Source of the DNA: the human T2T-CHM13v2.0 reference genome, Homo sapiens
DNA length: 64,000 nt
NCBI RefSeq assembly: GCF_009914755.1
Contig: NC_060943.1
Reading direction: 5' to 3' (one strand)
In this document: in pieces, positions 330 through 24,864 of the stretch
Layout of the letters: every line of letters begins with the position of its first letter
Numbering within the stretch: the stretch's first letter is position 1
The notes under the pieces: model-generated
What the model saw: only the letters and a program-made list of their open reading frames with translations
What the model was told of the DNA's origin: nothing
Databases searched by the model: none
Made by a program: the position numbers and the translations under genes

Positions 330-1250
330 CTGACTTCATTTCCCATCACTCCCACCTCACTCACCTTGTCCCAACCAACACCAGCTGTCTTGCTGATACT
401 CAAAACACACCAGGCACATTCCTGCCTCAGGGCCTTTGCACTTGCTGTTCTCTCTGCTTGGAACTTCCTTTCCCAAGAACTTTGCATGGCTGGCTCATCC
501 TCTTCATTAAGCACTCAATTCAAATATCAGTTCACCAGATGAACCACCCCTAACCACCTTTTCTTAGGTTCTCCTGTTTCAGTCACGTTTTACCCCATCG
601 CAGTGTTATTGTCAATCTCACTGCCTCAAATTATTGTATTATCTATTTACTAGTATATTATCTGTTTTCCCTTATAAAATTTAAACTCCATGAGTGTAAA
701 GTCCTTGTCTGATTTGTTCTCTGCCTCCAAAGTGTTCAGTGATAAGTTGGTGAGGTGATGGGTATGTTAATTAGCTTGATTGAATCTTTCCATAATGTAC
801 ACATAGGTTGAAATATCACATTGTAGCCCATGAATATATACAATTGTTGTTTGTCAATTAAAGTCATTTTTAAAACTGCTTGATGAATCTCTGTTGAATG
901 ATTAATGAATGAACCTCATCCACTTCCATCCCTTCTATAACTATGTCTATGTAGCACTTACTGTGTGCCAAGCACTGTTCTAAGTAATTTGCATGTATTA
1001 ATTAATTTGATGCTAACAATCTCTCTGAGAGGTAGGTGATGCAATTATCATCCCCATTTCATAGTTGAAAAAAACTGAGGCACAAGATGTTGGTCCAGTA
1101 ACTGGTATACAAGCCAATGAAATCTGGATTTGGTATCAGAAGTGGGGTGCCGTTAAATGCACTAAGATTACAAAGCTGGTAAGACGTTGGGCCAGGATTT
1201 GAAGCCAGGCACTGTGGCTCCTGAGCCTACAGGCTTAGTCACTCTGTTCA
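330..1250. mobile_element. L2 and MIR fragments (similar L2/MIR pieces at ~9500-9720, 10020-10450, 13090-13300, 15130-15490, 27810-28000, 32760-33220, 40610-41270, 42320-42650)
   Basis: L2: cctcagggcctttgcacttgctgttc, gaatgaatgaa 3' ends. MIR: cccatttt...gaaactgaggcaca. Confidence 0.7.
737..872 (+). mobile_element. L1MA-like 3' terminal fragment
   Basis: gaggtgatgggtatgttaattagcttgatt...tgtcaattaaa. Similar fragments at ~26200-26850 (-) and ~53325-53460 (+). Confidence 0.75.
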
Positions 1251-1429
1251 ATTTCTCACAGTTCCCCAAACACTATTTCTACCCACTTTTAGTCTCTTCT
1301 GCTCTATTCCCCAATTTCTTATAGCCTCCTAGGCAACTCCACTTTGACTCTCCCCAAACTAGAAATCTCAGATTTCCCTTTGAACTCACCTGTTCTTTCA
1401 CTTCCTAGATGAAGTGGTACTTAACTTGT

Positions 1430-2240
<811 letters not shown>

Positions 2241-21609: not shown

Positions 21610-21965
21610 GGAATGATGGATGGGTGGATGGACAGATTGGTATATAAGATGATAGGTGGGTGGATGGACGGAAGAATGAATGGAAGAATGGATGGAAGAA
21701 TGGATGGATGAATGGGTGAATGGAAGAATGGGTGAGTGGGTGGGTGGGTTGGGTGGATGGATAGATGTGTGGACAGGTGGGTGAATGGGAAGTTGGTTGG
21801 ATGGCTGGAAAATGGATGGATGGGAGAAAGAACAGGGAGGTGGATGAATGGATTGATGGGTAGAAAGATGGATGGGTGATGGACGGATGGATGGATGGAT
21901 GCATGCACAATTAGAAGTTTAAATGGGTGGGTGGTGGGTGGGTGAGTGGACAGATGAGTGGATGG
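21610..21965 (+). repeat. Degenerate (TGGA)n/(TGGG)n repeat
   Basis: GGAT/GGGT/GAAT mosaic. Confidence 0.9.
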
Positions 21966-22043
21966 AGGGGAGGTTAAGAGGAACCCAGTTTTGTGGCAGG
22001 TGGTGGGGAAGTCACAACATGCCTTCCTAAATGATGCTCAAAC

Positions 22044-22062
22044 ACGCCAGTAGATGTCAGAC
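22044..22062 (+). promoter_or_regulatory. Weaker CTCF-like motif
   Basis: ACGCCAGTAGATGTCAGAC resembles the CCAGCAGATGGCAG variant. Confidence 0.3.
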
Positions 22063-22479
22063 TAACCTCAGGAAACCACCTCGGGGCCAAGCTTGCACCA
22101 CCCTGGCCCCATCCTGAAGTTCTTTGATTCAAAATGAGCAAAGGCTCATTTTAATAAAACAGTTTGCATTGCACCCTGTATTTACACACTCCCTCACCAG
22201 CACCCTCCCAACTCAAATGGCATTTATAACCCCACTTCCTCTCCTGCAAATGGAAAAATGGGGCCAGGGTGGGTGTCTGGTGAAGGGTGCTTCCCACAGG
22301 GTCAGGTCGGGAGCATCAAGAGGGTAAGAGAGTAAATTTTGGGGTCCCCTAAATTGATTAGTATCCATATCAGCCTCAGCTCCAATCAAAATAATATTTA
22401 TATTCTCATCCCACACTCCTGATGTCTGCTCAGGAATCCACCCTAGGCCTGTGCCTTTGCCAAAAAAAAAAAAAAACTT

Positions 22480-23249: not shown

Positions 23250-23769
<520 letters not shown>

Positions 23770-23990
23770 TCACAGAGCCGGATGGGGGTGTCCGGGGGGC
23801 ATACGGCAACCAGTATTGATCAGTTAGCAGGGAAGGATTTTGAGATTTCAGAAGCCAGCACAGCCTTATCAATATGTTCCAGCTGCATGAATTTGCTCCC
23901 CGAAAAAGCTCGCCAAAAACATCCTAACCCCCAAGGGATCCCCGGTACAGCCGCACCGCCCCCCGATCACCACCACCCAGGCATACTCAC

Positions 23991-24184
23991 TCCCATTCTT
24001 TCCTCCTGGCCTGGGGGGTGCTGTGGATTTTGTGGGCCTGGTGGGCCAAGATGACATCTCGGTGATCCACCACGCCGCCCCGCCGCCTCAGAGGGGGGCC
24101 CTCGAAGCAGATGCTGAGCCGGGGAGGCCGAGTGTCCTGCAGGGCGCTGGGCGTGCCCCGAGCTGCGGTTGTGCAGGGCGTCAT
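23991..24184 (-). CDS. CACNA1A: Coding part of an alternative upstream exon: 65-aa N-terminal extension (MTPCTTAARG...VDHRDVILAHQAHKIHSTPQARRKEWE) of a CaV2 voltage-gated calcium channel alpha1 subunit, most likely CaV2.1; the rest of the gene lies beyond the left end of the window
   Basis: Seen: ATG at 24184 and 64 codons plus 2 nt before a consensus donor TGGGA|GTGAGT at 23991, in unique, CpG-rich, non-repeat sequence. Recalled, not searched: the HQAHKIHSTPQARRKEWE motif directly precedes MARF in extended CaV2 isoform models, and CACNA1A has ...cag|A ATG GCC CGC just before its start, so GA+A gives Glu in frame. The Alu density fits 19p13. Confidence 0.7.
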
Positions 24185-24294
24185 AGTAACTGGGGCGCGA
24201 GAGCATGGAGTCGGGGACCCAGGAAGACTTCAACATCCACGGGCCTCGCTCAGAAATCCCAGGGTCTTCTCCCTCCAGCACAGTGAGGGGGAAA
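23991..24294 (-). other. CACNA1A: Internal exon (304 nt) of a minus-strand transcript
   Basis: Acceptor TCTCTGTCTCCTCTTTCTTCTTCTAG|TTTCCC (AG at 24296-24295) and donor GGA|GTGAGT. CpG-retaining unique sequence between Alus. Confidence 0.8.
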
Positions 24295-24864
24295 CTAGAA
24301 GAAGAAAGAGGAGACAGAGAGGGCCAGTGTGAGGGAGAGGCAGACAGAGCTCACAGAGGGCAAGGAGAAGGGAACTCAGAAGACAAGGAGAGGCCGCCCC
24401 ACCCTCCTTCGCAGAAAGTCAAAATACACCCCAGCCCAGGCTGGCCGGGATTTAGTAGTTCCTTGGCAACTCAGGGCCCAGAAAGCCAGTTCTTAGGAGC
24501 TGCCCGGCAACATATGTGCCCCATGGAGCAAAACACTATGAGGCTGTGCCGCGGGCACTCGCTCCACCTCCCAGGTGCCGGCCACAGAGGGCGGGATGCT
24601 GGATTTCTCAGCATCTCTATGTCTCCTTCTGCAAAATGAGCCACCATGGGCCTGGGGGTTGGCTCTCCCTCAGTCCCTTGGTCCTGTGAGCTCTGGAAAG
24701 CTGAAAGGGTGAGTTCAAGAGGCAGTTTTAAACGCACGTGGAAGGCCGGGTGCAGTGGCTCCCGCAGGTAATCCTAGCACTTTGGGAGGCAGAGGTGGCC
24801 AGATCACCTGAGGTGAGGGGTTCGAGACCAGCCTGGCCAACATGGTGAAGCCCTGTCTCTACTA

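What the first reader, a model, noticed from the sequence alone, without database searches (positions are those of the whole stretch)
23991..24184. Residual 65-aa in-frame extension with a conserved-looking HQAHKIHSTPQARRKEWE motif
Seen: an intact ORF ending in phase 2 at a consensus donor, with a protein-like basic His/Arg-rich C-terminal segment. Recalled: this motif sits immediately before MARF in extended CaV2 models, and such a transcript may already appear in gene annotation; I know of no functional characterisation. Established: CaV2 N-termini take part in G-beta-gamma modulation and in dominant-negative suppression by truncated channels, so an extra N-terminal module could change channel regulation or trafficking. 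Variants here may fall outside canonical-transcript clinical analysis.
Basis: partly seen in the sequence, partly recalled or inferred. Interest (0 to 1): 0.8.

Follow-up and report, generated by a model that had tools for sequence, protein, structure and literature searches.

The report
Ancient upstream coding exon of CACNA1A
About 94 kb upstream of the human P/Q-type calcium channel gene CACNA1A lies a leftover of a very old extra first coding exon, also found upstream of CACNA1E and in vertebrates from sharks to mammals, which could add an uncharacterised, highly conserved segment to the front of the channel.

Summary
Window 24184-23991 (minus strand) is a 64-codon + 2-nt ORF ending at GGA|GTGAGT. 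It lies 94.4 kb upstream of the CACNA1A start codon on the same strand. CACNA1A's 5'UTR holds a strong acceptor (ctttgctctttgcag|A) exactly 1 nt before the ATG, so a join would read ...KEWE-MARF in frame.

The human genome has one paralogue, 70 kb upstream of the CACNA1E start codon. It has the same motif, the same phase-2 donor and the same acceptor 1 nt before the ATG. CACNA1B has none.

All 85 database proteins retrieved, from sharks to mammals, carry the 33-residue core RRGG..D...AH..HK...TP.A.RKEW. Of these, 31 continue directly into M(A/S)RFG, and 2 of the 31 are CaV2.1-type fish models.

So this is an ancient alternative 5' coding exon of CaV2.1/CaV2.3. It has no Pfam family, no PDB relative and no paper that my searches found.

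The human CACNA1A copy is degraded. A frameshift separates the ancestral start (MLS..YYDAL) from the conserved core. The two human proteins named CACNA1A that begin with this ORF splice its donor elsewhere and stop after 81 and 89 aa. The human EWE|MARF junction is unproven.

The parts
23991..24184 (-). Coding part of the upstream exon as read in human: ATG at 24184-24182, 64 codons plus 2 nt (phase 2).
   Evidence: Identical to the first 64-65 residues of P0001 and P0002, which sources name CACNA1A [Homo sapiens].
23991..24088 (-). Conserved core RRRGGVVDHRDVILAHQAHKIHSTPQARRKEW(E). It is predicted to hold one short helix flanked by basic clusters.
   Evidence: tblastn of shark, newt, fox and fish proteins all hit 23990-24088/24103 at E 1e-12 to 1e-22. 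16 invariant and 5 nearly invariant columns lie in this stretch and none elsewhere in A2. 85 of 85 stored proteins fit one pattern. AF2 predicts a helix only here.
23985..23990 (-). 5' splice site GTGAGT directly after ...TGG GA.
   Evidence: The CACNA1E paralogue has the identical ...GAATGGGA|gtgagtatg. The donor is used in the two human annotated products.
24156..24236 (-). Ancestral N-terminal part of the exon (MLKSSWVPDSMLSRPSYYDAL...), now in a different frame from the core. It has ATGs at 24236 and 24206.
   Evidence: Bat P0003 residues 1-27 match 24156-24236 in frame -3, and residues 35-90 match 23990-24157 in frame -1. Alignment A1 shows the same. Bat, camel, sheep and vole ORFs are continuous.
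24295..24296 (-). Candidate 3' splice site AG (ctcctctttcttcttctag|TTTCC) that would open the exon at 24294.
   Evidence: Sequence only; not tested.
24190..24191 (-). Second candidate 3' splice site AG (ctctcgcgccccag|TTACT ATG), 5 nt before ATG 24184. It would leave the two out-of-frame ATGs out of the exon.
   Evidence: Sequence only; not tested.

Best explanation
The ORF is the human remnant of an ancient alternative 5' coding exon of the CaV2.1 gene. A sister copy lies upstream of CACNA1E (CaV2.3), so the exon predates the split of the two genes.

How it works where intact (fish CaV2.1; CaV2.3 from sharks to mammals): transcripts that start upstream carry this exon. Its GT donor, after the second base of a Glu codon, joins an acceptor 1 nt before the 'canonical' ATG. 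Met-1 of the textbook channel then becomes an internal residue. The channel gains a mostly disordered cytoplasmic extension of about 65-170 aa. That extension ends in an almost invariant 33-residue element: a basic RRRGG cluster, one 14-residue His-bearing helix, then STPQARRKEWE. This element sits directly in front of the N-terminal segment already known to matter for CaV2 regulation and folding.

I infer that the element is a protein-docking or regulatory motif that defines a separate class of CaV2.1/CaV2.3 channels driven from an upstream promoter.

In human CACNA1A the core, the donor and the acceptor are intact, but a frameshift has cut off the ancestral start codon. Only the 65-aa ORF from ATG 24184 is in frame with the channel. 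The annotated human uses of the donor are non-productive. Human output of an extended CaV2.1 is therefore probably low or absent. In human the exon may act mainly through unproductive upstream transcripts.

Shown: sequence anatomy, paralogy, conservation, and the junction in other species' gene models. Inferred: use of the junction in human, and any function of the motif.
For: - Position and frame.
- The paralogue upstream of CACNA1E has the same motif, the same donor sequence and phase, and an acceptor (aacctcag|G ATG) also 1 nt before the ATG. CACNA1B lacks both the acceptor and any copy. Whole-genome searches found none. A local profile search of the 50 kb upstream gave a best E of 0.87, against 2.2e-25 for the chr19 positive control.
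- Coding signature between the two human copies over the last 34 codons: 23 of 34 residues identical, and nucleotide differences of 10/3/16 at codon positions 1/2/3.
- Breadth: 6 of 6, 37 of 44 and 69 of 69 scored candidates were significant in three searches, spanning mammals, bird, turtle, lizards, amphibians, lungfish, gar, teleosts and sharks.
- 85 of 85 stored proteins fit one core pattern; 18 are A-type, 66 E-type and 1 intermediate.
- Junction: 31 of 85 read KEWE-M(A/S)RFG. By their exon-1 part, 2 of the 31 are closest to human CACNA1A, 28 to CACNA1E, and 1 is ambiguous. P0066 continues into the ion-transport domain (PF00520).
- The exon lies in unique DNA between repeats and is the most CpG-rich 300 bp of the window.
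- AF2 predicts one helix in the core, with block pLDDT 88 and about 75, and disorder elsewhere.
- The CaV2 N-terminus is functionally important (abstract of PMC4940211).
Against: - No human sequence with the EWE|MARF junction was seen. The only two human products found use the donor differently and end after 81 and 89 aa.
- The human frame is broken relative to bat, camel, sheep and vole, and two out-of-frame ATGs (24236, 24206) precede ATG 24184 if the exon opens at 24294.
- RefSeq annotates no gene in the window.
- There is no CpG island or evident promoter in the window.
- All cross-species support is from predicted proteins. I could not see which rest on RNA.
- No mammalian model with the junction was retrieved, though the length limits of the searches may explain that.
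- Both structure models have low overall confidence (mean pLDDT 59.7 and 51.1).
- No function is known for the motif.
Confidence: 0.7

Rival explanations
1. In human the exon no longer codes for channel protein. It survives as part of upstream non-coding or unproductive transcripts. These either end before CACNA1A or shift the frame, and they may regulate the locus by transcriptional interference or by acting as a decoy or upstream ORF.
For: - Both human products found are short and end in a stop. One ends in the last exon of lncRNA LOC107985287; its acceptor at chr19:13644899 is shared with XR_007088908.1. The other ends after a cryptic AG 23 nt inside exon 2.
- A frameshift separates the ancestral start from the core, and two out-of-frame ATGs lie upstream of ATG 24184.
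Against: - The human core is identical to the sheep core and differs from camel, bat and vole at 1-2 residues.
- The donor and the acceptor before the ATG are intact.
- A second candidate acceptor 5 nt before ATG 24184 could remove the out-of-frame ATGs from the exon.
- A recent loss would leave no visible decay, so intactness is weak evidence either way.
Confidence: 0.4
2. The exon, alone or with exon 1, encodes a separate small soluble protein rather than a channel isoform. Either the unspliced ORF ends ...KEWE-stop, or the upstream exon plus exon 1 terminates in the retained U12 intron. The second form would be a free CaV2 N-terminal fragment of about 160-250 aa.
For: - 41 of 85 database proteins stop at KEW or KEWE.
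- Many of the 31 junction models end in ..WPYPF, which means they read into the AT-AC intron 1, and sources list them as separate 'uncharacterized LOC' genes.
- A free CaV2.1 N-terminal peptide can interfere with channel-channel interaction (abstract of PMC4940211).
Against: - The stop after KEWE comes from the donor consensus itself (GA|GTGA), so ORF callers end there by construction.
- Reading into an AT-AC intron is a common failure of gene predictors.
- P0066 continues into domain I.
- Conservation of the splice phase and of the acceptor 1 nt before the ATG in two paralogues argues for a join to the channel.
Confidence: 0.1
3. The similarity is conserved non-coding DNA (an enhancer or other regulatory element) and the ORF is incidental.
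For: RefSeq lists regulatory elements nearby, for example an enhancer tile at window 21921-22215. The window holds 209 ORFs of at least 65 aa.
Against: - The match is at protein level, is frame-specific, and has most differences at third codon positions.
- The open frame and the core are kept from sharks to mammals.
- The match ends exactly at a splice donor in both paralogues.
Confidence: 0.03

Closest known systems
Upstream N-terminal exon of CACNA1E (CaV2.3), seen here in the human genome and in predicted proteins of many vertebrates
   Same: Same core motif, same donor sequence and phase, same acceptor 1 nt before the ATG, and the same position tens of kb upstream on the gene's strand.
   Different: The human CACNA1E copy is a continuous 145-aa ORF, 84-86% identical to sheep and fox. 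The human CACNA1A copy keeps only 65 aa in frame after a frameshift. The core flavour differs: VVDH in A-type against LIEQ in E-type.
Fish CaV2.1-type extended models (P0050 Oncorhynchus mykiss, P0053 Alosa alosa)
   Same: A-type core (GGLVDHRD...) followed directly by M(A/S)RFGDE and a CaV2.1-like exon 1.
   Different: Their extension is about 135 aa with its own start (MLSPLYADGSV...). These are predictions, and I could not see RNA support.
Drosophila cacophony isoform cac-RN
   Same: One of 15 annotated isoforms starts earlier and adds 107 residues in front of the start codon used by the other 14 (passages of PMC6435823). The architecture is the same.
   Different: Homology of the added residues to the vertebrate core was not testable here, because I could not obtain the fly sequence.
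Alternative first coding exons of L-type channels
   Same: Promoter choice changes the cytoplasmic N-terminus of a high-voltage-activated calcium channel.
   Different: Those exons replace one another. Here the upstream exon is added in front of the whole canonical N-terminus through an acceptor inside the 5'UTR.
Pseudosubstrate sites of protein kinase A regulators (pattern R-R-x-A/G-hydrophobic; recalled)
   Same: The invariant RRGG followed by L, I or V fits that short pattern.
   Different: This is a short-motif resemblance only. No binding, structural or homology evidence exists. Pfam and PDB searches were blank.

Membership tests
CaV2 upstream N-terminal exon (A/E type) | Core motif RRG[GA]-x4-[RK]D-x3-AH-x2-HK-x3-TP-x-A-x-RK-x-W at the 3' end of the exon | tested here: met
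   The human chr19 ORF fits, and 85 of 85 stored proteins fit one pattern. Profile hit to chr19 at E 5.4e-23.
CaV2 upstream N-terminal exon (A/E type) | GT donor in phase 2 directly after ...TGG GA | tested here: met
   GGA|gtgagtatg in both the chr19 and chr1 copies.
CaV2 upstream N-terminal exon (A/E type) | Lies upstream of, and on the same strand as, a CaV2 alpha-1 gene whose ATG is preceded at -1 by a 3' splice site | tested here: met
   The exon is 94.4 kb upstream of the CACNA1A ATG, which is preceded by ctttgctctttgcag|A ATG. CACNA1E has the same layout at 70 kb. CACNA1B serves as a negative control.
CaV2 upstream N-terminal exon (A/E type) | Continuous reading frame from the ancestral start (M-L/F-S ... 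YYDAL/YYHAVYD) to the core | tested here: not met
   The human start region is in another frame. Bat, camel, sheep, vole and fish are continuous.
CaV2 upstream N-terminal exon (A/E type) | Transcripts in this species that join the donor to the acceptor 1 nt before the ATG | not testable with these tools
   No reads or transcript tables were available for this region. The two human products found join other acceptors. Full-length proteins were outside the search length ranges.
Unproductive / poison-exon transcript | Splicing that brings a premature stop well upstream of the main coding sequence | tested here: met
   P0002 stops in an exon at chr19:13644827-13644898. P0001 stops after a cryptic acceptor 23 nt inside exon 2.
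Kinase pseudosubstrate motif (PKA regulator type) | R-R-x-(A/G)-hydrophobic, with binding to the catalytic subunit | tested here: inconclusive
   The pattern is present and invariant. Binding is not testable here, and there is no sequence or fold relative.
Described protein domain (Pfam) or solved structure | Significant match to a curated family or a PDB chain | tested here: not met
   0 families for 5 proteins at E<=1. 0 PDB sequences at E<=10 with profile A2.

The most novel reading that the evidence does not exclude
CaV2.1 and CaV2.3 channels have, since before the vertebrate genome duplications, a second promoter-defined form. Its N-terminus carries an almost invariant 33-residue regulatory element: a basic RRRGG-hydrophobic site resembling a kinase pseudosubstrate, a His-bearing helix, and an S-T-P site. 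The element would change kinase or G-protein regulation, or trafficking, of the channel. It may be homologous to the long N-terminus of Drosophila cac-RN. In human it would still be made for CaV2.3, and from ATG 24184 for CaV2.1, so variants in it are missed by RefSeq-based diagnostics.
Probability: 0.2. Interest if true: 0.85.

Novelty: new member of a known kind. Interest (0 to 1): 0.62.

Why it matters
CACNA1A and CACNA1E are major disease genes (ataxia, migraine, epileptic encephalopathy). The CaV2 N-terminus is known to take part in channel regulation and in dominant-negative suppression by truncated channels (abstract of PMC4940211).

A deeply conserved N-terminal element is kept almost unchanged from sharks to mammals in two paralogues, yet it has no Pfam family, no structure and no paper in my searches. 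That points to an unstudied regulatory input to these channels and can be tested directly by expressing long and short forms.

For human genetics, RefSeq shows no gene in this window, so variants here are read as intergenic. The CACNA1E copy, which is intact in human, may matter more clinically than the CACNA1A remnant.

The case also shows that the 'canonical' exon 1 of both genes contains a functional-looking intron end in its 5'UTR.

Tried and rejected
- Chance ORF: rejected. ORFs of this length are common (209 in the window), but the homology is highly significant.
- Repeat-derived sequence: rejected. The exon lies in unmasked DNA at 23672-24738.
- CpG-island promoter at or upstream of the exon within the window: none found. 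No 500-bp bin reaches GC>=0.55 with o/e>=0.6.
- Other remnants of the exon between it and CACNA1A, or elsewhere in the window: none. In tblastn of 13 proteins against 135 kb, only the exon and CACNA1A exon 1 were significant.
- A copy near CACNA1B: none. Caveat: matches in closed regions of the reference are not shown.
- Known domain or structure: Pfam 0 of 5 proteins and PDB profile search 0. The ESM Atlas gave no usable hit. It only noted that it holds the human CACNA1E-upstream ORF letter for letter.
- Fold search: not run, because both models are mostly low-confidence disorder.
- Literature: nine searches found no description of this exon or motif.
  - Searches used gene and exon terms.
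  - searched three motif strings and found 0 papers.
  - One search was background on the CaV2 N-terminus.
- Papers read, as passages only:
  - PMC12465193 is a rat Cacna1e long-read study that used gene-specific PCR primers and has no occurrence of 'N-termin'. Its supplementary transcript files were not visible to me and could bear on 5' exons.
  - PMC6986797 gave nothing relevant.
  - PMC6435823 describes the fly cac-RN isoform.
  - I read the abstract of PMC4940211.
- Limits of the protein searches:
  - The length windows were about 35-112, 80-254 and 119-380 aa, so full-length CaV2 proteins could not appear.
  - The tool left out 18, 182 and 134 unnamed candidates.
- Dating the human frameshift and testing the fly homology were therefore not possible.

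Full report
**What is in the sequence.**
- On the minus strand, window 24184-23991 reads ATG plus 63 further codons plus GA, followed by gtgagtatg. The ORF listing reports it as a 65-aa ORF, because reading through the donor gives GAG TGA.
- An ORF of this size is not remarkable in itself: the window has 209 ORFs of at least 65 aa.
- The exon sits in unmasked DNA (23672-24738) between repeats. Its GC is 0.60-0.66, and it has the highest CpG count of any 300-bp bin in the window. No CpG island was found in the window.

**Where it is.**
- The window is chr19:13702001-13766000. RefSeq places CACNA1A at chr19:13331719-13631840 on the minus strand, with all five mRNAs starting translation at 13631585.
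- The donor is at chr19:13725991, so the exon lies upstream on the gene's own strand.
- The 5'UTR part of CACNA1A exon 1 reads ...cgtaacccggagccctttgctctttgcag|A ATG GCC CGC. This is a pyrimidine tract and CAG ending exactly 1 nt before the start codon. Joining GA to A gives GAA, so the product would read ...R-K-E-W-E-M-A-R-F in frame, across an intron of 94,404 nt.

**A paralogue in the same genome.**
- A six-frame search of the whole reference with the 64 aa found, besides itself, chr1:180768864-180768992 on the plus strand (E 3.6e-9, 60% identity, no stop). A third hit on chr18 (E 5.2, two stops) I take as noise.
- The chr1 hit is inside CACNA1E (chr1:180673125-181163498, plus strand). It belongs to a 145/146-aa ORF ending ...KRRRGGLIEQRDIIKAHEAHKMQSTPQARRKEWE, followed by the same gtgagtatg.
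- The CACNA1E start-codon exon lies 70 kb downstream. It is preceded by ...tgtctgtttaaacctcag|G ATG GCT CGC, again an acceptor 1 nt before the ATG and again in frame.
- CACNA1B has a GC-rich promoter running up to ...gggagcc ATG with no such acceptor.
- CACNA1B also has no copy of the exon:
  - A profile of 32 sequences found only the chr1 (4.7e-36) and chr19 (5.4e-23) copies in the genome, plus a chr9:117.47 Mb hit at E 3.3 with three stops, among 83 scored candidates.
  - A local profile search of the 50 kb between EHMT1 and CACNA1B gave nothing better than E 0.87, against 2.2e-25 for the chr19 positive control.
- Matches in closed regions would not have been shown.

**Coding signature.** Over the last 34 codons the two human copies share 23 of 34 residues. 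Their nucleotide differences fall 10, 3 and 16 at codon positions 1, 2 and 3. That pattern is expected of a translated sequence, not of a conserved non-coding element.

**Other species.**
- Three protein searches (named sources only) returned the following:
  - 6 significant proteins of 6 scored with the human peptide;
  - 37 of 44 with the human CACNA1E-upstream ORF;
  - 69 of 69 with the C-terminal part of an Arapaima 'P/Q-type alpha-1A-like' protein.
- The tool left out 18, 182 and 134 unnamed candidates.
- In all, 85 proteins are stored. All 85 fit one core pattern: 18 have the CACNA1A flavour (..GG[LV]VDH..), 66 the CACNA1E flavour (..GG[LI][IV]EQ..), and 1 is intermediate.
- They come from mammals, a bird, a turtle, lizards, frogs, a newt, lungfish, gar, many teleosts and sharks.
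- In alignment A2, 16 columns are invariant and 5 nearly so. All lie in the last 34 columns.
- What follows the core:
  - 31 of 85 proteins run straight on as KEWE-M(A/S)RFG...;
  - 41 end at KEW or KEWE;
  - 13 continue differently.
- Judged by their exon-1 part, 28 of the 31 are closest to human CACNA1E. Two (rainbow trout P0050 and allis shad P0053) are closest to CACNA1A. One is ambiguous.
- One model (P0066) continues into the first ion-transport domain.
- Many junction models end ..WPYPF. That means they read into intron 1, which in all three human genes is an AT-AC (U12-type) intron...TGGCC|atatcct, with ...ttccttaa...ac| before exon 2.
- These are predicted proteins. I could not see which rest on RNA.

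**The human CACNA1A copy is a remnant.**
- Bat, camel, sheep and vole proteins have one continuous ORF from M(L/F)S..YYDAL.. to the core. Fish A-type proteins start MLSPLYADGSV...YYHAVYD.
- In human, the bat protein's residues 35-90 match 23990-24157 in one frame (84% identity), while residues 1-27 match 24156-24236 in another frame (59%) (alignment A1). A net indel that is not a multiple of three, near 24156-24166, has therefore cut the ancestral start off from the core.
- If the exon opens at the candidate acceptor ending at 24295, two out-of-frame ATGs (24236, 24206) precede ATG 24184. If it opens at a second candidate acceptor (cgcgccccag|TTACT, AG at 24191-24190), they are excluded. I could not decide between the two.
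- The core itself is intact. It is identical to sheep and differs at one or two residues from camel, bat and vole.

**What human annotation shows.**
- Two proteins that sources name 'calcium voltage-gated channel subunit alpha1 A [Homo sapiens]' begin with this ORF (P0001, 81 aa; P0002, 89 aa). The exon and its donor are therefore already in public annotation, although RefSeq lists no gene in the window.
- Neither protein joins MARF.
  - P0002 continues in an exon at chr19:13644827-13644898. Its acceptor (13644899) is also the start of the last exon of RefSeq lncRNA XR_007088908.1.
  - P0001 continues from a cryptic AG (gattttag|CCACC) 23 nt inside CACNA1A exon 2, out of frame, and stops after 17 residues.
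- Full-length human proteins were beyond the length ranges of my searches, so an annotated extended channel is neither shown nor excluded.

**What the extension looks like.**
- There is no Pfam family (0 of 5 proteins), no PDB relative and no Atlas lead.
- AlphaFold2 on alignment A2 (human CACNA1E exon) gives disorder, except for one helix at residues 121-134 (QRDIIKAHEAHKMQ) with block pLDDT 88; mean pLDDT is 59.7.
- On alignment A3 (trout CaV2.1-type model), the same helix appears at 111-124 with pLDDT about 75; mean pLDDT is 51.1.
- The conserved element is thus a basic RRRGG-hydrophobic cluster, a short helix bearing two invariant histidines, an invariant T-P, and a basic RRKEW tail, directly in front of Met-1 of the textbook channel.
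- The RRGG-hydrophobic part fits the short pseudosubstrate pattern of protein kinase A regulators. That resemblance is recalled and untested.

**Interpretation.**
- The shared motif, donor phase and acceptor position in two paralogues, and their presence from sharks to mammals, show that this exon and its junction existed before CACNA1A and CACNA1E diverged. On this view the 'canonical' ATG exon is the second coding exon of a longer form.
- I infer that an upstream promoter yields N-terminally extended CaV2.1/CaV2.3 channels, and that the conserved core is a docking or regulatory site.
- The CaV2 N-terminus is known to matter for channel interactions (abstract of PMC4940211).
- Drosophila cacophony has the same layout: 14 of 15 annotated isoforms share one start, and cac-RN adds 107 residues in front of it (passages of PMC6435823). 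Whether the two are homologous I could not test.
- For human CACNA1A the balance of evidence is a residual exon. It is still spliced and its core is intact, but it lost its own start, and the only visible products are unproductive.
- The human CACNA1E copy, outside this window, looks fully intact and may be the more relevant one.

**Literature.** Nine searches gave no paper describing this exon or motif. The motif strings occur in no held paper. A rat Cacna1e long-read study used gene-specific primers and does not discuss the N-terminus (passages only). I could not see its supplementary files.

**Verdict.** The feature is a real, ancient, uncharacterised N-terminal coding exon of the CaV2.1/CaV2.3 genes. 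It is known to annotation pipelines but, as far as my searches show, not to the literature. The human CACNA1A copy is partly decayed.

Noticed in passing
L007 = chr1:144569599-144572880 (outside the window): A block in the NBPF/PDE4DIP duplication zone of chr1q21 has 441 bp that are 99.5% identical to the CACNA1B 5'UTR plus exon 1. It abuts 108 bp that are 100% identical to a piece 836 bp further into CACNA1B intron 1. This looks like an intron-less, processed copy. No gene is annotated there.
   Followed up: partly
L001, L006, L008, L017 (exon 1/intron 1 of CACNA1A, CACNA1B, CACNA1E): Intron 1 of all three CaV2 genes is AT-AC (U12-type)...TGGCC|atatcct, and for CACNA1A ...ttccttaattccccaatac| before exon 2. 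Many database gene models fail at this intron and read ..WPYPF into it.
   Followed up: partly
chr19:13644371-13644899 (outside the window; L018): The last exon of RefSeq lncRNA LOC107985287 (XR_007088908.1) shares its acceptor with the final exon of the 89-aa human CACNA1A product P0002. That lncRNA exon therefore also serves as a terminal exon for transcripts starting at the upstream coding exon.
   Followed up: yes
L003 = chr1:180767364-180770492, ORF 1195-1635 (+): The human CACNA1E-upstream exon is a continuous 145/146-aa ORF, 84-86% identical to sheep and fox proteins. The ESM Atlas holds it letter for letter. No human named protein of 80-254 aa containing it was returned.
   Followed up: partly
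window 21921-22215: RefSeq lists an enhancer tile (K562, CTCF-type state) about 1.8 kb downstream of the exon, on the CACNA1A side. It was not examined further.
   Followed up: no
P0046, P0048, P0049 (cyprinid and salmonid proteins): Some fish models fuse the A-type exon to a PAT complex subunit Asterix domain (PF03669). This is probably a neighbouring gene merged by the predictor.
   Followed up: no
P0055-P0083 (teleosts): A third teleost flavour of the core (..GGLVEQKDIIMAHQAHKIQ..) precedes an exon 1 that scores almost equally against human CACNA1A, CACNA1B and CACNA1E. It may be a divergent teleost CaV2 paralogue.
   Followed up: partly
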